A stretch of 19,033 nt of DNA, taken from the IMG/VR virus record IMGVR_UViG_2681813004_000005, positions 1-19,033 of that record, one strand, 5' to 3'. The number at the start of each line of letters is the position of its first letter. The stretch's first letter is position 1. This document shows positions 1,446 through 11,598 of the stretch, in pieces. This stretch comes from a virus. Lineage: Duplodnaviria; Heunggongvirae; Uroviricota; Caudoviricetes. The notes under the pieces were generated by a model. That model searched no databases and had not been told where the DNA came from. It saw nothing but the letters and a program-made list of their open reading frames with translations. The translations under genes were made by a program, and so were the position numbers.

Positions 1446-2006
1446 ATGAAAAATACCGATTTTGAAATCCGTACATCTGAACTGACCGCCAGCGATAAAA
1501 AACTGGTGGGTTATGCCGTTCGCTGGAACAGCCTTTCAGAAATTATCTGGGACGAATTCCGCGAACAGTTCACGCCGGGGGCTTTTGCTGACTATCTGGC
1601 GGCGGGTAATGATGTGCGCTGCCTGTATGAGCATGACTATACCCGACTGCTGGGGCGCACCAAATCCGGAACACTGGTACTGACTGAGGACAACACCGGG
1701 CTACGTTTTGAACTGACACCGCCTGATACCCAGCTTGGAAAAGATGTGCTTACGCTGGTGGAGCGTGGCGATATTACAGGAATGAGCTTTGGCTTTCGCG
1801 CATTATGCGAAGAATGGAATATCGCGCAAAAACCGTATCTGCGTACTGTTACCGCTGCAGAACTCAGGGAAATCACGATCACGTCGATGCCTGCTTATCC
1901 CGAATCTGGCGTGGAGATTGCCCACCGTTCGTTGTTTGCACAGCACCCTGAATTACGCCCGGCAGGAAATAATCGTCATCGCTGGGCTGAACTGGCGGGG
2001 TTGTGA
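1446..2006 (+). CDS. Prohead maturation protease, HK97 family
   Basis: First ATG of the 1230-2006 frame that has an RBS (GGAG about 10 nt upstream). Aligns with the protease ORF at 9728-10378. Position next to capsid and portal genes. Confidence 0.75.
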   Translation: MKNTDFEIRTSELTASDKKLVGYAVRWNSLSEIIWDEFREQFTPGAFADYLAAGNDVRCLYEHDYTRLLGRTKSGTLVLTEDNTGLRFELTPPDTQLGKDVLTLVERGDITGMSFGFRALCEEWNIAQKPYLRTVTAAELREITITSMPAYPESGVEIAHRSLFAQHPELRPAGNNRHRWAELAGL

Positions 2007-2007
2007 T

Positions 2008-3231
2008 ATGTGGTGGCCTTTTAGTCGTAAAAAAAGCGATCTGCGTAACCTGTCCATTGATGATTTTCTGGCGCTGTCCGGCGTACCGAATACCGGATCC
2101 GGAGAATATGTTTCTGCCGGGACGGCTGAATCATTGCCTGCTGTGATGAACGCGGTTTCTGTCATCGCTGAGGCGGTGGCCACGATGCCGTGTTATCTGT
2201 ATCTGGTACGTAATGACAAGGGCAGGGAGGCGCGGGAATGGCTGGACAGTCATCCGGTAGATATTCTGCTGAATGAGCAGCCTAATTCATGCCAGACACC
2301 TTACCAGTTTAAACGCACAATGATGCGTCACTGCCTGCTGAACGGTAACGCCTATGCGGTTATTGAGTGGGGGCAGGACGGGCAGCCAAAATCACTTCAT
2401 CCTTATGCGCCGGGGTGTGTTGTACCGGAACGCACAGGCGCACACAAATACCGATATACCATCACCGAACCCTATACAGGAACGGTGCGCACGTATTTAC
2501 AGGAAGAAGTTCTGCATCTCCGCTATGCCTCGGATGATGGCTTTCTGGGGCGTTCCCCCGTCACGATTTGCCGTGAGGCGCTGGGGCTTGGCCTTGCTCA
2601 ACAGCGTCACGGAGCCAGCATTATGAAAGATGGCATGATGGCGGCAGGGATTATCACGTCAGGCGAATGGCTGGACGGCGTGAAAGGTAAACAGGCATTA
2701 GACGCCCTGGAACGCTACAAGGGGGCGAAAAATGCCGGAAAAACGCCAATCCTTGAAGGGGGCATGGATTACAAGCAACTGGGGATGAGTAACCAGGATG
2801 CGGAATGGCTGGCCTCCCGTCGCTTCTCCATTGAAGACATCGCCCGGATGTTCAACGTGTCGCCTATTTTTCTGCAGGAATACAGCAACAGCACCTACAG
2901 CAATTTCAGTGAGGCAAGCCGCGCGTTTCTGACCATGACAATGCGTCCTTGGTTGGCGAACTTCGAACAGCAAATCAAGGCCGCTTTGCTGGTGGCTTCT
3001 CCCGTGCCTGGAACCCGTTATCTGGTTGAGTTTGATTCAGCCGATTTATTACGCGCCACCCCTACCGAACGTTACGCCACGTATGAGAAAGGGATTAAGA
3101 ACGGGATCATCAATCCGAACGAAGCCCGTGAGCGTGAGGGAATGCCGCCGCGTGAAGGTGGTGACGAGTTCAGCCAGGCATGGAAGCAGGAAGTGACAAT
3201 CAGCAAGAACAGTAAGGGCGGTGACGAATGA
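2008..3231 (+). CDS. Portal protein, HK97 family
   Basis: ATG at 2008, 2 nt after the protease stop. The track ORF from 1789 is an upstream artefact in the same frame. N-terminus MWWPFSRKKSD parallels MFFSGLFQRKSD of the second portal; shared C-terminal motifs (SIEDIARMFNV vs QLEEICRLFRV; NPNEAREREGMPPREGGDEF vs SPNDCRDLEDMNPRPGGDVY). Confidence 0.85.
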   Translation: MWWPFSRKKSDLRNLSIDDFLALSGVPNTGSGEYVSAGTAESLPAVMNAVSVIAEAVATMPCYLYLVRNDKGREAREWLDSHPVDILLNEQPNSCQTPYQFKRTMMRHCLLNGNAYAVIEWGQDGQPKSLHPYAPGCVVPERTGAHKYRYTITEPYTGTVRTYLQEEVLHLRYASDDGFLGRSPVTICREALGLGLAQQRHGASIMKDGMMAAGIITSGEWLDGVKGKQALDALERYKGAKNAGKTPILEGGMDYKQLGMSNQDAEWLASRRFSIEDIARMFNVSPIFLQEYSNSTYSNFSEASRAFLTMTMRPWLANFEQQIKAALLVASPVPGTRYLVEFDSADLLRATPTERYATYEKGIKNGIINPNEAREREGMPPREGGDEFSQAWKQEVTISKNSKGGDE

Positions 3232-3566: not shown

Positions 3567-3859
3567 CAGCAGAAAAAATAACCCTGGAAGAGGCCAAACT
3601 TCACTGCCGCATAGATGGTAACACAGAAGACACACTGATTCAGGCATACATAAGCGCGGCGCTGGAGGTATGCCAGAAGCATATTGGCAGGCGTTTTGAT
3701 GACGGCCTGGAATTTACCCCTGCAATAAAAATTGGTTGCCTGATGTACATCTCGCAACTGTACGAGTACCGGACAACGCTTGGCGATACCGATACAAAAG
3801 AAATTCCCCTGACGATTTCTGCGCTCTGGTCGGTTTATCGTGATGTGGGGGTGTACTGA
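3563..3859 (+). CDS. Head-tail connector, gp6-like
   Basis: 98 aa. ATGA overlap with the upstream gene. N-terminal TLEEAKLHCRID matches TLEELRVQCRID of the ORF at 11849-12154; weaker similarity further on. Confidence 0.7.
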   Translation: MTAEKITLEEAKLHCRIDGNTEDTLIQAYISAALEVCQKHIGRRFDDGLEFTPAIKIGCLMYISQLYEYRTTLGDTDTKEIPLTISALWSVYRDVGVY

Positions 3860-4299
3860 TGCCGTGGCAACCATTAAGGCGATGCACTGAGCCGGGCTGT
3901 AATAAGCGCGTGAAGTCCGGCAAGTGTGAAGAGCACAGGCGGGCTGCATGGCGTGCAGAGGATGCCAGACGGGGACACCGCCGCGCGCGCGGGTATTCCC
4001 GACAGTGGGACAAATACCGCGCCCTGTACCTGAGCAAAAACCCGTTATGCGTGCGTTGTCTGGCTAAGGGGATTTATACGCCAGCTCTTGTGGTGGATCA
4101 CATCATTCCCATCAATGGCGGCGGTGATGTTCTCTTCTGGCCTGAGTGGAACCACCAGGCATTGTGCCAGACGTGCCACAACCGTAAGACGACACGGGAA
4201 GACCCAGCCACGAAAGCGAACCGTAAGGCGGGTATGTATCGCGAGCAGGAAGAACGGGCGGCACACCGTAACGACTGGATGTATGGCGATGATGACTGA
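3859..4299 (+). CDS. HNH endonuclease, phage packaging-associated (HK97 gp74-like)
   Basis: 146 aa with Cys-rich N-terminus and HNH motif (DHIIP ... N ... CHNRKT). Sits immediately upstream of terS, as in HK97-type cos phages. Start overlaps the previous stop (TGATG). Confidence 0.8.
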   Translation: MPWQPLRRCTEPGCNKRVKSGKCEEHRRAAWRAEDARRGHRRARGYSRQWDKYRALYLSKNPLCVRCLAKGIYTPALVVDHIIPINGGGDVLFWPEWNHQALCQTCHNRKTTREDPATKANRKAGMYREQEERAAHRNDWMYGDDD

Positions 4300-4468
4300 A
4301 CAGGAGCAAAACAGGCTGATACGTGGACTGATAAGGCAGCGTGACTTATGGAAGACACAGGAGACAGGGCACAAAGCCAACAGGACAGGGCGCACAGAAC
4401 GCACCACAGCGAAGCGATTAACCGACCGTGACCGCGAGGTCATGGAATGTTTTCGCAATCGCTGGTGA
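4283..4468 (+). CDS. Hypothetical small Arg-rich protein (about 60 aa)
   Basis: 3' portion of the 4088-4468 frame beginning at ATG 4283 (or 4289/4292), overlapping the HNH stop. No recognisable motif. The 5' part of that frame overlaps HNH and is discounted. Confidence 0.3.
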   Translation: MAMMTEQEQNRLIRGLIRQRDLWKTQETGHKANRTGRTERTTAKRLTDRDREVMECFRNRW

Positions 4469-4587
4469 GGCCGTCAGAGGGGGTGGGGGAGGTTTTCAGG
4501 ACAAAACCGTCCCTGCCGGACACCGACCGCCTCCTCAAATTTTTGTGCACGGAAATTTTTTTGAAAATAATTGGGCGAAAAAAGAAC

Positions 4588-4944
4588 ATGGCAAGACCAC
4601 CAAAAGCCCCCGCTTACCTGGATGAAATCGCGGTCAGGCAGTGGAAGGAAAAATCGCGCCAGCTTTCCGGGCGGGAAGACCTTACCCCCGCCGACTGGAG
4701 CAATCTGGAGCTGTATTGCGTTAACTACTCCATATACCGCAAAGCCGTCGAAGACCTTGCCACGCGCGGGTTCAGCATTGTTAACAGTCAGGGCAGCGAG
4801 AGCAGAAACCCCGCCCTGAGCGCAAAGGCTGACGCTGAAAGAATAATGATCAAAATGGCTTCTTTGCTGGGTTTTGACCCGGTAAGCCGCCGCAGAAATC
4901 CACCGGAAACAGAGGAAGAGGACGAGCTTGACCGCCTGGCATGA
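4588..4944 (+). CDS. terS: Terminase small subunit, P27 family
   Basis: Internal ATG at 4588 gives N-terminus MARPPKAPAYLDE, typical of P27-family TerS. Sits between HNH and terL. The track ORF from 4447 is an upstream extension. Confidence 0.75.
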   Translation: MARPPKAPAYLDEIAVRQWKEKSRQLSGREDLTPADWSNLELYCVNYSIYRKAVEDLATRGFSIVNSQGSESRNPALSAKADAERIMIKMASLLGFDPVSRRRNPPETEEEDELDRLA

Positions 4945-6607
4945 GTACGCAGAAGGCGTAAAAAACGGCAAAATTACGGCCTGTAAACGACTGAAACAGG
5001 CCGTTAAACGGTATTTTTCTGACCTTGAAAACCCCCTTTACACGTTCGATCCGGAGGTCGTGGAGCGGTTTATTGCCTTTTCCAGGGTGTGTCCGCACGT
5101 AAAAGGCGCAATGCGCGGTAGCCCCATTGAGCTGGAGCCGTGGCAGCAGTTCGCCTTTGCGTGCATCCTGGGCTTTAAGGTTAAGGCCACCGGACGGCGC
5201 AAATACACCAGCGCATTCATTGAAGTGCCGCGAAAAAATGCCAAATCCACGGTCGCCGCTATCCTGGCTAACTGGTTTCTGGTTATGGAAAACGGGCAGC
5301 AGGATATTTACACCGCCGCCGTGAGTCGTGATCAGGCGCGGATCGTGTTTGATGATGCGCGTCAGATGTGCCTTTTATCCCGACCGTTACGAAAGCGGGT
5401 AAATATTCAGGCACACAAGGTGATACACCCGAAAACCAACAGCCTGTTAAAGCCACTGGCAGCAAAAGCGGCAACCATTGAGGGGACAAACCCGAGTCTT
5501 GCCATTGTGGATGAATATCACCTGCACCCAGACAACGGGGTTTATTCCGCGCTTGAACTGGGAATGGGGGCGCGTCCGGAGGGGTTATTATTTGCCATCA
5601 CCACATCGGGGAGCAACGTTGTTTCAGCCTGTAAACAACACTACGACTATTGCTGCCAGATACTGGATGGTGAAGAGGTGAACGAATCCATGTTCGTGCT
5701 GATTTACGAGCTGGATGATGAAAGCGAGGTTGACGATCCGGCGATGTGGATAAAGGCGAATCCAAATATCGATGTTTCCGTCGATCGTGAAAAACTGGCC
5801 TCAACCATCCAGAAAGCGCGGGGTATTCCGTCGCAGTGGGTGGAGATGATGACAAAGCGCTTTAATATCTGGTGTCAGGGGGCTACGCCGTGGATGGGTA
5901 ACGGTGCATGGGCTGAGTGTGCCGGAACGTTCGCGGAGGCGGATTTATACGGGCAGGAGTGCTACGCGGGGCTGGACTTATCATCAACCAGCGATATTTT
6001 TTCAACAAATGATATTTCAAGCGTGTGTTATGCCTTTCCGGTTGGTAAAACCATCATGCTGGTTTCCCGTCATTATCTGCCGGAGCAGCAGCTACAGAAT
6101 CCCGCCAATAAAAACCGCGCCATCTATCGCCAGTGGGCAAAATCGGGCTGGATACGCACAACGCCAGGCGACTGTATTGATTACGACCGTATCAGGGATG
6201 ACATCATGAAGGACGCGGAAAATTTTAATATCCGGCTGGTGGGCTTCGATACATGGAACGCCACGCACCTGATGACGCAGCTACAGGGCGCAGGATTTGA
6301 GGTGGAGCCGTTCCCGCAAACATACCTTCGTTTCAGTCCGGCGGCGAAATCGTTCGAAGTTTTTGTTAACCGGAAGGTGATTGTGCATCGTGGCGATCCG
6401 GTGCTGGCCTGGTCAATGAGTAATGTTGTGATGCAGAGTGACGCGAACGCCAATATCAAGCCGAACAAGAAAAAATCATCCAACAAGATAGACCCGAGCG
6501 TTGCGGCTCTGATGGCGTTTGGCACATTCCAGGCAGAGCATGAGGAATTTGCATTTGATATGAGCGACAGCCACAAAGAGCGACTTGCGGCGTTTGATGG
6601 GGTATGA
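4928..6607 (+). CDS. terL: Terminase large subunit (ATPase plus nuclease)
   Basis: 559 aa. The only in-frame start after the upstream stop is TTG at 4928, with a GAGGAAGAGG purine tract before it; overlaps the terS end. C-terminal half aligns with the terL remnant at 7572-8315. Confidence 0.85.
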   Translation: MTAWHEYAEGVKNGKITACKRLKQAVKRYFSDLENPLYTFDPEVVERFIAFSRVCPHVKGAMRGSPIELEPWQQFAFACILGFKVKATGRRKYTSAFIEVPRKNAKSTVAAILANWFLVMENGQQDIYTAAVSRDQARIVFDDARQMCLLSRPLRKRVNIQAHKVIHPKTNSLLKPLAAKAATIEGTNPSLAIVDEYHLHPDNGVYSALELGMGARPEGLLFAITTSGSNVVSACKQHYDYCCQILDGEEVNESMFVLIYELDDESEVDDPAMWIKANPNIDVSVDREKLASTIQKARGIPSQWVEMMTKRFNIWCQGATPWMGNGAWAECAGTFAEADLYGQECYAGLDLSSTSDIFSTNDISSVCYAFPVGKTIMLVSRHYLPEQQLQNPANKNRAIYRQWAKSGWIRTTPGDCIDYDRIRDDIMKDAENFNIRLVGFDTWNATHLMTQLQGAGFEVEPFPQTYLRFSPAAKSFEVFVNRKVIVHRGDPVLAWSMSNVVMQSDANANIKPNKKKSSNKIDPSVAALMAFGTFQAEHEEFAFDMSDSHKERLAAFDGV

Positions 6608-6888
6608 CGAGAATGAGCGAAACCGAACTACTAAAAATAATCCGCCGCGTTACCGGAATCAGCCAGGAAGCAGGCAAACAGGAGGCCACGCAGCCGGACA
6701 GCGTGATAGCCGAAAATTACGCGCGTGTGGTGGCTGAGGTGATGCGCCGTGACGGTATCGAGCTTAACGGCGTGGATATACGCACCAGAGTTCTGGAGTT
6801 GTTGTCATATCGTCGCCGCGTGGAGATGTACCAGGAGAAAGAAAAAATTACTTACCACTGGAAGAAGCCGGAGCGGTTACGACGTTAA
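6604..6888 (+). CDS. Hypothetical protein (94 aa), last gene of unit 1
   Basis: ATGA overlap with the terL stop suggests translational coupling. No motif recognised. Confidence 0.45.
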   Translation: MTRMSETELLKIIRRVTGISQEAGKQEATQPDSVIAENYARVVAEVMRRDGIELNGVDIRTRVLELLSYRRRVEMYQEKEKITYHWKKPERLRR

Positions 6889-6890
6889 CT

Positions 6891-6940
6891 TGTGGTGACA
6901 TACCGTGACGGAGAGTGACAACCAGTGACACACAGTGACA
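6891..6940. repeat. Five GTGAC(A/G) hexamers at exact 10-bp phasing; candidate protein-binding array (integrase arm-type, terminase or regulator sites)
   Basis: Read directly: GTGACA 6895, GTGACG 6905, GTGACA 6915, 6925, 6935, each preceded by a variable 4-mer. Starts 3 nt after the stop of the 6604-6888 ORF. Confidence 0.85.
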
Positions 6941-7001
6941 AAAAGACGGTATTTAAATAGAGTGGGTGTTTAATACCCCCCGTTTTTTTTCGTGTGGTGC
7001 A

Positions 7002-7016
7002 TGGTCAAAATGACCA
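7002..7016. promoter_or_regulatory. Perfect palindrome TGGTCA-AAA-TGACCA, operator-like
   Basis: Read directly; 6-bp arms, 3-bp spacer, preceded by a T8 run at 6983-6990. Confidence 0.5.
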
Positions 7017-7142
7017 CGGAGAAGATACGCACCGAAGCAGAACAATTACCGTAGGTTAAAGCGACAGTATTCACACCAGCAACCTGATTATCAATTTTCA
7101 GCCGTTCGGTGGCATCACTGGCCCCATTTTCCTGATGGGGTT

Positions 7143-7193
7143 GCGGGTTATTTTGGGGGTATTTGCGGGTTATTTTGAATGTCTCGCGGGTTA
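7143..7193. repeat. Three direct copies of GCGGGTTA at 21-22 bp spacing
   Basis: Copies at 7143, 7165, 7186; the first two sit in a longer unit TTTGCGGGTTATTTT. Confidence 0.85.
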
Positions 7194-7270
7194 CGCTTTG
7201 GCTAATATTCAAACGCATCATTTTTTAACGCATTGATATTAAAGAATAAAAAATACTTAGCAAGCGAAGA

Positions 7271-7295
7271 TAACCCGCTAACCCGCATAACCCGC
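7271..7295. repeat. Three tandem copies of TAACCCGC (reverse complement of GCGGGTTA) at 8-9 bp spacing
   Basis: Copies at 7271, 7279, 7288. With the 7143-7193 array they form an inverted pair around an AT-rich core of about 75 bp (7194-7270). Confidence 0.85.
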
Positions 7296-7571
7296 ACTGT
7301 TTTGTATATATATACGAAAAATTGCATTCAGGGGGGTGATCGAAATTTCTACTGCCTCTTATCTCTTTGAGTGCTCACCTCGTCAGATTGTTACACACAA
7401 GAAATAAAAAATGCTTCGCGATGGTAGGTCGAATCACTGTATCAAAAAACGGTGTGTATCAGCATTAAAACAATACAGATACGTGTATTGCGCTGTGTAT
7501 TGCTTGATGATTTATAAAGACTGTTTTTTCATGTTAAACGATTGATATACAGGTGATTTTAAAAAACTTGA

Positions 7572-8315
7572 AATATTCTTACCAAACACATGAATGTGTG
7601 GGTCACTGCCGAGTCTGCCTGGATGGACATGATTAAGTGGGAGAAATGCGAATACATTGCCCCACGACATGAGCTGAAAACGTATCCCATGTGGGTCGGC
7701 GTTGACCTTGCTCATAAGATTGATATCTGTGCGGCGGCAAAACTCTGGCGAACGGATAACGGGCATGTTCATGCCGATTTTAAATTCTGGCTCCCGGAAG
7801 GACGGCTGGAACGATGCTCGCGGCAGCAGGCAGAACTTTACCGGAAGTGGGCGGAGATGGATAAGCTGATTCTGACGGATGGTGATGTTATCGATCATGC
7901 TCAGATAAAAAGTGACTTACTGGAATGGATTGGTGGTGAAAACCTCAGGGAACTGGGATTTGACCCGTGGAGCGCGATGCAGTTCAGCCTGGCACTGGCT
8001 GAAGAAGGGATACCGCTGGTGGAGGTTCCGCAGACGGTTCGCAATCTGTCAGAGGCCATGAAGGAAACGGAATCACTGGTCTATGCCGGACGTTTCCATC
8101 ACAGCAATCATCCGGTCATGAACTGGATGATGTCTAACGTTACGGTAAAACCGGACAAAAACGACAATATCTTCCCGAATAAATCCACGCCGGAAGCCAA
8201 AATCGACGGCCCTGTTGCGATGTTTACAGCGATGAGCCGGATGCTGGTCAATGGTGGTGAACCGGAGCCGGATCTGTCTGAACATCTGGTCAGCGTGGGC
8301 ATCCGCTCGCTTTAA
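7572..8315 (+). pseudogene. terL: 5'-truncated terminase large subunit (C-terminal nuclease-domain remnant only)
   Basis: Frame is open only from 7572 (TGA at 7569-7571). The 241 aa from ATG 7590 align with the C-terminal part of the unit-1 TerL (LYRKWAEMDKLILTDGDVIDH vs IYRQWAKSGWIRTTPGDCIDY; HPVMNWMMSNV vs DPVLAWSMSNV). ATPase domain and upstream terS are absent; AT-rich non-coding DNA lies upstream. Confidence 0.8.
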
Positions 8316-10392: not shown

Positions 10393-11598
10393 ATGGCGGT
10401 TGATATTAAAGATGTCGAACAGGTCGCGCAGGAGCTGCAGCAGAAGTTTGACGACTTCAAAGCAAAGAACGACAAGCGCGTGGATGCGATTGAGCAGGAA
10501 AAAGGCAAACTTGCCGGGCAGGTGGAAACCCTGAACGGGAAACTCAGCGAGCTGGAAAACCTCAAAAGCGATCTTGAAAAAGAGCTGCTTGAGCTGAAAC
10601 GTCCGGCAGGTGGTGCGCAGAATAAACTGGCCACCGAGCATAAAGAAGCGTTTGTGGGCTTCCTGCGTAAAGGCCGTGAAGATGGTCTGCGCGATCTGGA
10701 GCGTAAGGCATTACAGGTGGGCACCGATGAAGACGGTGGCTATGCCGTGCCGGAAGCGCTGGATCGCAACATTCTTAACCTGCTGAAAGATGAAGTGGTG
10801 ATGCGCCAGGAAGCCACGGTGATCACCGTTGGCGGTTCCGACTACAAAAAACTGGTGAATCTGGGCGGTACGGCTTCCGGATGGGTTGGCGAGACTGACG
10901 CGCGCTCCCAGACTGCCACTTCCAGACTGGGGCTGATTGAACCTTTCATGGGGGAAATCTACGGTAACCCGCAGGCCACCCAGAAAATGCTGGATGATGC
11001 CTTTTTCAACGTGGAGGCCTGGATCAACAGCGAGCTGGCAACCGAATTTGCCGAACAGGAAGAAATTGCCTTTACCACCGGCGATGGTACCAAGAAGCCG
11101 AAAGGGTTCCTGGCGTATGAATCCACTGATGAAACCGACAAGGTCCGGGCGTTCGGCAAACTTCAGCATATTGTATCCGGCGAAGCGACGACGGTGACTG
11201 CAGATGCTATTATCAAACTGATTTACACGCTGCGTAAGGCACACCGCACCGGCGCGAAGTTCATGATGAACAACAACAGCCTGTTTGCCATTCGTCTGCT
11301 GAAAGACACCGAGGGTAACTATCTGTGGCGTCCGGGGCTGGAGCTGGGGCAGCCGTCCTCTCTGGCGGGTTACGGTATCGCTGAAAACGAACAGATGCCG
11401 GATATTGCCGCTGATGCGAAAGCCATTGCATTTGGTAACTTCAAACGGGGTTACACCATCGTTGACCGTATCGGTACCCGCATTCTGCGTGACCCGTACA
11501 CCAATAAACCGTTTGTCGGTTTTTATACCACCAAGCGCACCGGCGGCATGCTGGTCGATTCGCAGGCCATCAAACTGCTGAAGATTGCAGCGGCGTAA
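10393..11598 (+). CDS. Major capsid protein, HK97 fold with delta domain (prophage)
   Basis: 401 aa. AGGAG RBS. Coiled-coil N-terminus, C-terminal motifs shared with the unit-1 capsid protein. Followed by a hairpin. Confidence 0.9.
   Translation: MAVDIKDVEQVAQELQQKFDDFKAKNDKRVDAIEQEKGKLAGQVETLNGKLSELENLKSDLEKELLELKRPAGGAQNKLATEHKEAFVGFLRKGREDGLRDLERKALQVGTDEDGGYAVPEALDRNILNLLKDEVVMRQEATVITVGGSDYKKLVNLGGTASGWVGETDARSQTATSRLGLIEPFMGEIYGNPQATQKMLDDAFFNVEAWINSELATEFAEQEEIAFTTGDGTKKPKGFLAYESTDETDKVRAFGKLQHIVSGEATTVTADAIIKLIYTLRKAHRTGAKFMMNNNSLFAIRLLKDTEGNYLWRPGLELGQPSSLAGYGIAENEQMPDIAADAKAIAFGNFKRGYTIVDRIGTRILRDPYTNKPFVGFYTTKRTGGMLVDSQAIKLLKIAAA

What the first reader, a model, noticed from the sequence alone, without database searches (positions are those of the whole stretch)
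7143..7295. Inverted pair of triple GCGGGTTA / TAACCCGC repeats around an AT-rich core
Three direct GCGGGTTA copies at about two-turn spacing face three tightly packed inverted copies across a 75-bp AT-rich core that itself holds two AACGCAT repeats. This layout (protein-binding repeats flanking an easily melted or bent core) fits an origin, an att-site arm or core region, or a terminase recognition site. It lies in the junction between the two units and is unexplained by any gene.
Basis: seen in the sequence. Interest (0 to 1): 0.6.

Follow-up and report, generated by a model that had tools for sequence, protein, structure and literature searches.

The report
Displaced half of a satellite's replication origin
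The repeat array is the second half of the replication origin of a phage satellite (a capsid-forming PICI). In this lineage it sits about 8 kb from the replication gene, at the island's right end; the origin type is known but this split layout appears undescribed.

Summary
Six exact GCGGGTTA copies (three direct, three inverted) flank a 77-bp, 70% AT core that holds the least stable 30-mer of the window.

The array lies inside a capsid-forming PICI satellite, about 284 bp left of the att core. That satellite is embedded in a prophage terL gene.

Homologous sequence lies immediately 3' of the DUF927 Rep gene in E. coli O157 and in classic PICIs. There it is the second of two iteron modules (M1 and M2) of the satellite origin. 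The two-module pattern persists in Rep relatives down to 58% identity while the iteron sequence changes with the Rep C-terminal domain.

In one E. coli sublineage M1 stays beside rep. M2, this array, lies beyond all cargo, next to the attP arm. This resembles P4 ori and crr.

- **Not an att arm:** the real arm repeats are GTGTATTGC.
- **Not a terminase site:** elements with 97-100% identical HNH, TerS and TerL lack the array.

**Caveats:** the window does not contain rep, seven relatives carry the array beside a non-cognate Rep, and firing at M2 is untested.

**Verdict:** a new variant of a known kind, of moderate interest.

The parts
7143..7193 (+). Left iteron set: three direct GCGGGTTA copies (7143-7150, 7165-7172, 7186-7193), two helical turns apart. 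Proposed binding sites for the C-terminal domain of the satellite's DUF927 Rep.
   Evidence: Exact matches. Nearly invariant in 31 distinct homologous copies while the spacers vary. The same 8-mer forms the array 3' of rep in relatives.
7194..7270 (.). AT-rich core, the proposed DNA-unwinding element. TTGATATTAAAGAATAAAAAATACTTAGCA(A/C)GCGAAGA is its best-conserved part. The AACGCAT pair is not conserved.
   Evidence: 70% AT. The least stable 30-mer in the window (-29 to -30 kcal/mol, top 0.01%) lies here, and it is less stable than the M1 core of relatives. Alignment.
7271..7295 (-). Right iteron set: three tightly packed inverted copies (TAACCCGC at 7271, 7279 and 7288).
   Evidence: Exact matches. 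Copy number varies from 2 to 5 among homologues, as is usual for iteron arrays.
7296..7352 (+). Conserved right-hand block of module M2: CTGTTTTG-(TA)n-CGAAAAATTG, with (TA)5 at 7305-7314. In the canonical location this motif sits 25-35 bp before the next gene's start codon, so it may be a -10/promoter element. This is the end of the sequence shared by islands with different integrases.
   Evidence: GTTTTGTATATATAC is kept after the last inverted iteron in clades whose iterons differ. (TA)n length is polymorphic. Homology among att types ends near 7350.
7119..7143 (+). Stem-loop (GGCCCCAT...ATGGGGTT) abutting the first iteron. It resembles a terminator and may insulate the module from late-operon transcription.
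   Evidence: Consensus scan only. Inferred.
7483..7503 (+). GTGTATTGC x2: the likely integrase arm-type sites of the satellite's right attP arm. Listed for contrast and not part of the origin module.
   Evidence: A tandem pair here, and the same pair next to int in L003 1100-1122 and L004 14760-14781.
7579..7585 (.). Probable att core (TTACCAA). This is the right end of the satellite, where the reading frame of the interrupted prophage terL resumes.
   Evidence: Shared by the attL and attR junctions of L003. Joining them gives a continuous TerL frame (...NFFTKHMNVWV...). Inferred.

Best explanation
The array is one of the two iteron modules of a PICI-type satellite replication origin. I call the two modules M1 and M2, and this array is M2. 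The GCGGGTTA octamers would be bound by the C-terminal DNA-binding domain of the island's roughly 707-aa DUF927 Rep, a self-loading helicase-initiator related to SaPI Rep and Cch. Rep bound on both sides in opposite orientation would melt the 77-bp AT-rich core between them and load there. In most relatives M1 and M2 lie side by side directly 3' of rep. In the E. coli sublineage to which this window belongs, M1 stays beside rep. M2 lies at the far right end of the island, about 284 bp from the att core, and all cargo lies between the two modules; here that cargo is the capsid and packaging genes. This recalls P4, whose alpha-binding repeats form two separated clusters, ori and crr. Shown here: homology, position, co-variation of iteron with Rep, and conservation of the iterons. 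Inferred: Rep binding, melting, and whether M2 fires as an origin or acts as an auxiliary site.
For: (1) The layout matches the published definition of SaPI/PICI origins: at least two iterons on each side of an AT-rich centre, pointing in opposite directions (PMC9371898, PMC6092414, read; sequence).

(2) Window 7162-7324 has 77-87% identical homologues immediately 3' of the DUF927 gene. These occur in an O157:H7 cf-PICI (L012) and in classic PICIs (L013, L016), where they form the second of two modules.

(3) The closest terL-embedded relatives (L003, L004/L002) and L001 carry M1 beside rep. M1 there is 2 direct plus 4 inverted GCGGGTTA. The same relatives carry this array about 7.8-8.1 kb downstream.

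(4) Iteron type tracks the Rep class in about 70 cf-PICI loci:
- 706-710 aa Rep goes with GCGGGTTA.
- 604-605 aa Rep is 50% identical to P4 alpha and goes with TGTTCAC(C), the annotated P4 type-1 repeat.
- 582-584 aa Rep goes with GGTAGA.
- 465-471 aa Rep goes with GTGGGGA or AAGTGAG.

A natural C-terminal swap shows where specificity lies. The L078 Rep is 81-96% identical to the GCGGGTTA-type Reps over the first ~575 residues but about 30% identical over the last 60. Its iterons switch to GGGACAA.

(5) In Rep relatives down to 58% identity, at least 45 loci keep the pattern 2 direct, 5 inverted, 2 direct, 3 inverted. The iteron changes by clade: TAACCCGC, TAACCCA, GAACCAA, GGGATAA.

(6) The six iterons are nearly invariant in 31 distinct copies, while the spacers and core vary.

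(7) All 19 evaluable loci with a GCGGGTTA-type Rep and only M1 beside rep carry the distal M2. The same split occurs with unrelated cargo in L237/L238 and L014.

(8) The Rep matches PDB 8tch 'Pathogenicity island protein' (E = 6.5e-14) and the Cch helicase 5dgk.
Against: The window starts in the capsid gene, so neither rep nor M1 of this particular element can be seen. Its exact configuration was not found in the collections searched. Seven relatives carry an intact distal GCGGGTTA array although their Rep belongs to another class with other iterons (L020, L028, L042, L046, L056, L057, L066). The array can therefore persist without its cognate Rep, at least for a time. The 19/19 association is among closely related E. 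coli elements and is confounded by shared ancestry. M1 on its own has the full two-sided layout and might suffice as the origin. No binding, melting or replication data exist for this iteron class. The experimentally tested E. coli PICI origin (EcCICFT073) belongs to another Rep and iteron class.
Confidence: 0.75

Rival explanations
1. It is an orphan relic. The module is homologous to an origin half but has no function in this element. It would have been left behind when replication cassettes (rep plus its adjacent iterons) were swapped by recombination.
For: Seven of 26 loci that carry the distal array have a Rep of another class. Two of these orphans have one mutated iteron (L042 TAACTCGC, L066 GCGGGTTT). 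The window does not show which Rep its element has.
Against: Most orphan copies have all six iterons intact. All 19 evaluable M1-only elements with the cognate Rep keep the array. Iterons are conserved over copies that differ by 5-23% elsewhere. Among terL-embedded relatives, 12 of 16 with an identified Rep have the cognate one.
Confidence: 0.15
2. It is a Rep-binding control site and not an initiation site. It would act as an auxiliary cis element like P4 crr, as a copy-control (handcuffing or titration) cluster like P1 incA, or as an operator over the conserved (TA)n promoter-like motif.
For: M1 alone has the complete two-sided layout. P4 needs a second iteron cluster in cis, which lies between the alpha gene and attP (annotation; the requirement in cis is from my own knowledge). 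GTTTTGTATATATAC follows the inverted iterons in every clade, and in the canonical location it lies just upstream of the next gene.
Against: The M2 core is longer and much less stable than the M1 core in the split elements: -30.0 against -35.3 kcal/mol for the weakest 30-mer. That suits unwinding better than mere titration. The promoter scan did not call a sigma-70 site there. This reading overlaps the main one, because Rep binding is common to both.
Confidence: 0.2
3. The repeats are arm-type binding sites of the satellite's integrase or excisionase in the attP arm.
For: The array lies 284-436 bp from the att core, inside what would be the arm distal to int.
Against: Nearly the same array occurs in islands with different integrases and targets: terL, yifB, and sites next to yqeG and tRNA-Ile. 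The sequence specific to each att type begins only after about 7350. No GCGGGTTA lies near int in L003 or L004. GTGTATTGC pairs occur in both arms. In O157 and classic PICIs the homologue lies beside rep, far from att.
Confidence: 0.02
4. It is a cos or pac recognition site for the satellite's HNH-TerS-TerL packaging machinery.
For: It lies 536 bp downstream of terL, and repeats flanking a bendable core are typical of terminase-binding regions.
Against: L035 and L038 encode TerS 98%, HNH 99-100% and TerL 97.5% identical to the window's proteins. They extend 1,076 bp past terL but have no array, only 1-2 scattered 7-mers in 12 kb. Seventeen further cf-PICIs lack it as well. Classic PICIs without TerL have it beside rep.
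Confidence: 0.02

Closest known systems
SaPI/PICI replication origins, the iteron origins of self-loading Rep helicases (Ubeda 2007 and 2012 as cited in PMC9371898; Gram-negative PICIs in Fillol-Salom 2018, PMC6092414)
   Same: Short iterons lie in two oppositely oriented sets around an AT-rich centre. The iteron sequence is specific to the Rep C-terminal domain. The cognate Rep is homologous to SaPI Rep and Cch (PDB 8tch and 5dgk). Homologous copies lie immediately 3' of rep.
   Different: This copy is not 3' of rep. It lies about 8 kb away, beyond the packaging genes and next to the attP arm. It is only one of two modules, and some relatives carry it with a non-cognate Rep. The tested E. coli example (EcCICFT073) uses a D5_N/DUF5906 Pri-Rep and GGTAGA iterons.
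Satellite phage P4 ori plus crr
   Same: Two separated clusters of the same initiator-binding octamer occur in one small satellite genome. In P4 one cluster (crr) lies about 200 bp from the attP core on the side away from int (X51522 annotation). M2 has the same placement here, about 284 bp from the core.
   Different: The P4 initiator alpha is a D5-type SF3 primase-helicase with TGTTCACC repeats. The cognate Rep here is DUF927 with GCGGGTTA. In P4 the cluster beside the initiator gene is also the one beside attP, whereas here these are the two different modules. Sister cf-PICIs do carry a Rep like P4 alpha, with TGTTCAC iterons.
Helper-embedded PICIs (HE-PICIs; Mageeney et al. 2023, PMC10111431)
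   Same: The genomic context matches. A PICI with int, alpA and primase is integrated inside a late gene, a terminase gene, of a lambdoid prophage and is co-oriented with it.
   Different: That paper places the origin downstream of the primase gene and does not describe a second iteron module at the right end.
Iteron plasmids with a second iteron cluster (P1 incC/incA, F, RK2). From my own knowledge; not tested here.
   Same: Initiator-binding repeats occur in two clusters, one of which need not be the initiation site.
   Different: There is no evidence here for handcuffing or copy control. The initiator belongs to a different protein family.

Membership tests
SaPI/PICI-type iteron replication origin | Two sets of short iterons in opposite orientation, at least two on each side, flanking an AT-rich region | tested here: met
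   Three direct and three inverted GCGGGTTA flank a 77-bp, 70% AT core that holds the least stable 30-mer of the window. Definition taken from PMC9371898 and PMC6092414.
SaPI/PICI-type iteron replication origin | Located immediately 3' of the rep (pri-rep) gene | tested here: not met
   This copy follows terL and the 94-aa gene. In relatives it lies 7.8-8.1 kb (cf-PICIs) or more than 10 kb (other cargo) from the end of rep. Homologous copies in L012, L013, L016 and at least 45 more distant loci do lie 3' of rep.
SaPI/PICI-type iteron replication origin | Iteron sequence specific to the cognate Rep (C-terminal winged-helix domain) | tested here: met
   Tested by co-variation only. GCGGGTTA occurs beside every Rep with the conserved C-terminal domain (17 distinct proteins). 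A natural C-terminal swap (L078) changes the iterons to GGGACAA. Clades at 58-68% identity have TAACCCA, GAACCAA or GGGATAA in the same pattern.
SaPI/PICI-type iteron replication origin | Rep binds and melts the site, and rep plus ori drive plasmid replication | not testable with these tools
   This needs EMSA or footprinting, KMnO4 probing and plasmid maintenance assays. It was done for EcCICFT073 (another iteron class) and for SaPIs (PMC6092414, PMC9371898).
SaPI/PICI-type iteron replication origin | Cognate rep present in the same element | tested here: inconclusive
   The window begins in the capsid gene. Nineteen relatives with the array have the cognate Rep and seven have another class. 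The source genome was not found.
P4-type bipartite ori/crr | Two separated clusters of the same initiator-binding repeat in one element | tested here: met
   M1 beside rep and M2 at the right end in L001, L003, L004/L002 and 16 IMG/VR loci. P4 annotation for comparison. M1 cannot be seen in the window itself.
P4-type bipartite ori/crr | Alpha-type (D5_N/SF3 primase-helicase) initiator and TGTTCACC repeats | tested here: not met
   The cognate Rep is DUF927 with GCGGGTTA. Only sister elements have the Rep like P4 alpha.
Tyrosine-integrase attP arm-type sites | The repeat occurs in both arms and co-varies with the integrase and att site | tested here: not met
   No GCGGGTTA lies near int. The array is shared by islands at four different sites. 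GTGTATTGC pairs are the repeats present in both arms.
cos/pac terminase recognition site | Present wherever the cognate TerS, TerL and HNH are present | tested here: not met
   L035 and L038 (TerS 98%, HNH 99-100%, TerL 97.5% identical) and 17 other cf-PICIs lack the array. PICIs without TerL have it.

The most novel reading that the evidence does not exclude
In a large E. coli PICI sublineage the origin has been split into two working halves that bracket the whole cargo bay, with M1 beside rep and M2 beside the attP arm. The right end then acts as a composite replication-control region. M2 would serve as the main unwinding site or as a crr-like site required in cis. About 210 bp to its left, the neighbouring GTGAC x5 array has a 10-bp period and looks like the origin iterons of helper-phage 'replisome organizer' initiators. 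That array could let the satellite sense, titrate or use the helper's initiator. This could also explain why M2 persists in islands whose own Rep is of another class.
Probability: 0.15. Interest if true: 0.7.

Novelty: new variant of a known kind. Interest (0 to 1): 0.4.

Why it matters
PICI origins are described as a single site directly 3' of rep. These results add three points:

- The origin of the DUF927-Rep class is an old two-module structure whose iterons co-evolve with the Rep C-terminal domain.
- In a widespread E. coli sublineage the two modules are separated by 8 kb to more than 10 kb of cargo, and the second module marks the island's right terminus.
- The second module can persist with a foreign Rep.

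If M2 is required in cis, island engineering and satellite-detection tools that take "rep plus adjacent ori" as the replicon would miss part of it. The gap between M1 and M2 would then be the natural cargo site. The case also gives a second example, after P4, of a satellite with a bipartite origin, and it is testable.

Tried and rejected
- **Genome-contig scan:** a scan with the capsid protein gave only 7 loci. One was useful (L005, Rosenbergiella), where a 631-aa ORF ending just before the array (not itself characterised) is followed by TATCTACC/GGTAGA repeats.
- **Phage collection:** searching with 6850-7600 gave one irrelevant short hit.
- **Source genome:** no E. coli record covers 6850-7600 in full. 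An exact gapped pattern joining the window-specific left flank to the terL-type arm found nothing in IMG/VR.
- **Literature:** a search for the 8-mer returned only unrelated primer sequences. The cf-PICI preprint does not map ori or cos. A P4 cosmid paper gave no detail on crr, so the P4 GenBank annotation was used instead.
- **Considered and rejected:** att arm sites and a cos/pac site (see rival explanations); the AACGCAT pair as a functional motif, because it is not conserved; and the 83-aa ORF at 6970-7221(-) as a real gene, because it is frameshifted in L056/L057 and has no Pfam or PHROG match.
- **Apparent counter-examples:** L237 and L238 have M1 only, with no M2 within 10 kb. Both are cut about 600 bp short of where M2 lies in their chromosomal counterpart L014.

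Full report
**Observation.** GCGGGTTA occurs exactly at 7143, 7165 and 7186 on the + strand, and at 7271, 7279 and 7288 on the - strand. The window holds eight copies against 0.41 expected, and none of 200 shuffles reaches eight. The direct copies are 22 and 21 bp apart. The inverted copies are 8 and 9 bp apart. The 77-bp core (7194-7270) is 70% AT, in a window that is 47.8% AT. It contains the least stable 30-mer of the whole 19 kb, in the top 0.01%. The two AACGCAT copies are present, but they vary freely among homologues.

**Context.** Window 1 to about 7585 is the right part of a capsid-forming PICI (cf-PICI). It encodes:

- capsid, 251-1396;
- portal, 1789-3231;
- head completion protein and adaptor;
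- HNH, 3859-4299;
- TerS, 4447-4944;
- TerL, 4928-6607;
- a 94-aa protein of PHROG 1561, 6604-6888.

From 7590 onward the window encodes the C-terminal nuclease half of a different TerL. Prophage portal, protease, capsid and tail genes follow it. In close E. coli relatives (L003, L004/L002) the N-terminal half of that prophage terL lies just upstream of the satellite's int gene, so the satellite is inserted in the helper's terminase gene. This is the helper-embedded PICI configuration of Mageeney et al. 2023, who list a Terminase_1 target (PMC10111431). The att core is probably TTACCAA at 7579-7585. Tandem GTGTATTGC pairs occur at 7483-7503 and again next to int in relatives, as expected of arm-type integrase sites. 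The array therefore lies inside the satellite, 284 bp from its right end, and not at the junction.

**What the array is homologous to.** A sensitive search of E. coli genomes with 7121-7352 found matches in 357 genomes. In O157:H7 the match (77%) lies between the stop codon of a 710-aa DUF927 protein and the next gene. That island lies between roxA and phoQ, the same site as EcCICFT073 in CFT073, and I take it to be the EcCIEDL933-type cf-PICI. The same is true in classic PICIs that carry a capsid and decoration gene (87% and 79%).

That intergenic region holds two iteron modules:

- **M1:** two direct GCGGGTTA, about 45 bp of AT-rich DNA, then four to five inverted copies.
- **M2:** two direct copies, about 75 bp of AT-rich DNA, three inverted copies, then GTTTTG(TA)nC.

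The finding corresponds to M2. In L001, L003 and L004/L002, only M1 remains beside rep, and M2 lies 7.8-8.1 kb away after terL. The right end of L001 is 95-98% identical to window 6850-7352.

**Evidence that these are Rep sites.** Published work defines SaPI and PICI origins by four features. They have six to twelve short iterons immediately 3' of rep. At least two iterons lie on each side of an AT-rich centre and point in opposite directions. The iterons are recognised by the Rep C-terminal winged-helix domain. Rep self-loads there (PMC9371898; PMC6092414).

The DUF927 protein matches PDB 8tch 'Pathogenicity island protein' (E = 6.5e-14) and the Cch helicase 5dgk. It also gives a weak hit to the Cch HTH domain at its C-terminus.

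Among 80 IMG/VR cf-PICIs with TerL 91-97% identical to the window's, every Rep class is followed by its own iteron cluster:

| Rep length | Pfam family | Iteron |
|---|---|---|
| 706-710 aa | DUF927 | GCGGGTTA |
| 604-605 aa | D5_N/DUF5906 | TGTTCAC |
| 582-584 aa | D5_N/DUF5906 (shown for the 584-aa EcCICFT073 protein) | GGTAGA/CTCTACC |
| 465-471 aa | AAA_25 | GTGGGGA/AAGTGAG |
| 454 aa | not determined | TGCCGCA |

The 605-aa class serves as a positive control. It is 50% identical to P4 alpha residues 320-771, and its iteron equals the annotated P4 type-1 repeat TGTTCACC.

A natural domain swap gives the sharpest test. The L078 Rep is 81-96% identical to the GCGGGTTA-type Reps over the first ~575 residues. 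It is only about 30% identical over the last 60, and its iterons are GGGACAA.

Searching with the Rep itself reached relatives at 58-68% identity. At least 45 loci keep the same pattern 3' of rep: 2 direct, 5 inverted, 2 direct, 3 inverted, within about 260-340 bp. The iteron is TAACCCA, GAACCAA or GGGATAA depending on clade. The two-module origin is therefore old, and its repeats co-evolve with Rep.

Within the GCGGGTTA group, an alignment of 31 distinct M2 copies shows the six iterons nearly invariant, while the spacers, a G-run, (TA)n and much of the core vary.

**The split arrangement.** Adjacent M1 and M2 is the ancestral state. The split state was seen only in the E. coli GCGGGTTA group. 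All 19 evaluable loci with the cognate Rep and only M1 beside rep carry the distal M2. The split is not tied to packaging genes. In L237/L238, whose right end matches L014 at 99.3% over the last 1,665 nt of the 925-aa ORF, ORFs of 843, 686 and 925 aa lie downstream of M1, and in L014 M2 follows that cargo and lies next to the att side. All cargo thus lies between M1 and M2, and M2 ends the sequence shared by islands with different integrases. Homology stops near 7350, and the sequence specific to each att type follows.

P4 offers a precedent. Its alpha-binding repeats form crr (4291-4590), about 200 bp from the attP core on the side away from int, and ori about 4.7 kb away. In the split elements the M2 core is clearly less stable than the M1 core, at -30.0 against -35.3 kcal/mol for the weakest 30-mer. 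M2 is therefore the better candidate for unwinding.

**Complications.** Seven loci carry an intact distal GCGGGTTA module although their Rep is of another class, with its own complete iteron field (L020, L028, L042, L046, L056, L057, L066). Nineteen loci with other Reps lack the module. The simplest reading is recent replacement of the rep-plus-proximal-iteron cassette, which left M2 behind. Two of the orphans have one mutated iteron. This means the module can exist without its Rep.

The window begins in the capsid gene, so I cannot tell which case applies here. The window's exact combination was not found in the E. coli or IMG/VR collections. That combination is the left flank of the L001 type joined to the terL-type arm. 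The loci are closely related isolates, so the counts are not independent events.

**Rejected readings.**

- **Att-arm sites.** The array is shared by islands in terL, in yifB, and next to yqeG and tRNA-Ile. It is absent near int. In other PICIs it lies beside rep. The repeats common to both arms are GTGTATTGC.
- **Terminase site.** L035 and L038 encode TerS 98%, HNH 99-100% and TerL 97.5% identical to the window's proteins and extend 1,076 bp past terL, yet have no array. PICIs without TerL have it.
- **The annotated 83-aa ORF over the first three iterons.** It is frameshifted in L056/L057, and elsewhere only its iteron part is shared.

**Verdict.** The array is a Rep-iteron module of the known PICI origin type: the second half of a conserved bipartite origin, displaced to the island's right end. 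Its identity as an origin-type Rep-binding module is well supported (about 0.75). Whether it fires, assists M1 in cis, or is an orphan in this element remains open. The kind is known (Fillol-Salom 2018). I did not find the split, att-proximal arrangement or the orphan copies described in the papers I could read. I rate it a new variant of a known kind, with interest about 0.4.

Noticed in passing
window 6895-6939 (+): GTGAC occurs five times at an exact 10-bp period (6895, 6905, 6915, 6925, 6935), just 3' of the 94-aa gene and about 210 bp left of the array. The same ~50-bp cassette (98-100% identical) occurs in some cf-PICI lineages within otherwise different flanks and is absent from others. 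The helper prophage of strain PEC240 has two clusters of CGTGAC at a 10-bp period inside its 'phage replisome organizer' gene (L004 about 2510-2550 and 2770-2820). Of 80 sampled IMG/VR contigs with four GTGAC copies at this spacing, 37 have the pattern within or near a homologue of that gene, and 4 are cf-PICIs. The satellite may carry helper-type origin iterons.
   Followed up: partly
window about 7353-7600; L003 930-1160 and 16230-16500: The satellite is integrated inside the terL gene of an HK97-like prophage, a helper-embedded PICI. The probable core is TTACCAA (7579-7585). The GTGTATTGC tandem pair (7483-7503) recurs next to int. The prophage TerL nuclease half resumes at 7590.
   Followed up: partly
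L018-L097 (IMG/VR cf-PICIs), rep region: Nearly identical cf-PICIs (TerL 91-97%) carry at least six different Rep classes from three helicase families: DUF927, D5_N/DUF5906 like P4 alpha, and AAA_25. Each class has its own iterons. All share an N-terminal domain of about 140 aa. Replication cassettes appear to be swapped freely.
   Followed up: partly
L042 2329-4375, with L035, L038, L056 and others: The 604-605-aa Rep class is 50% identical to P4 alpha (residues 320-771). It is followed by nine TGTTCAC repeats, the P4 type-1 origin repeat.
   Followed up: partly
window 7300-7315, and after the last inverted iteron in L267, L261, L296 and L013: The motif GTTTTGTATATATAC is conserved across Rep clades whose iterons differ. 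In the canonical location it lies 25-35 bp upstream of the next gene's start codon, so it may be a -10 element under Rep control. (TA)n length and the G-run between iterons 1 and 2 are polymorphic.
   Followed up: partly
window 6970-7221 (-): An 83-aa ORF is annotated in RefSeq relatives as a hypothetical protein (WP_028120178.1 in L001). It overlaps the three direct iterons, has no Pfam or PHROG match, and is frameshifted in L056/L057. It is probably not a gene.
   Followed up: yes
window 6604-6888 (+): The 94-aa protein (PHROG 1561) is the last gene of many cf-PICIs. A gene of similar size (282 nt, annotated hypothetical) is also the last gene of the classic PICI EcCICFT073 (L100 11374-11655); its similarity to the window's gene was not tested. 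The gene is missing in a large terL-embedded group, where M2 starts 84 bp after terL. Its function is unknown.
   Followed up: no
L238 9935-17596; L014 1-2003: A PICI with the same Rep and M1 carries ORFs of 843, 686, 925 and about 104-113 aa downstream of M1, in place of capsid and packaging genes. In the matching chromosomal locus L014, M2 lies about 1 kb beyond this cargo. The cargo may be a defence system.
   Followed up: no
window 10965-10972 (-) and 11365-11372 (+): Two further exact GCGGGTTA copies lie 400 bp apart in inverted orientation inside the prophage major capsid gene. They are also present in L002 but not in L003. They are probably chance matches in coding sequence.
   Followed up: no
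window 6964-6990 (+): A terminator-like hairpin (GGGTGTTTAATACCC followed by a T-run) lies after the GTGAC array. It probably marks the end of the satellite's late operon.
   Followed up: no
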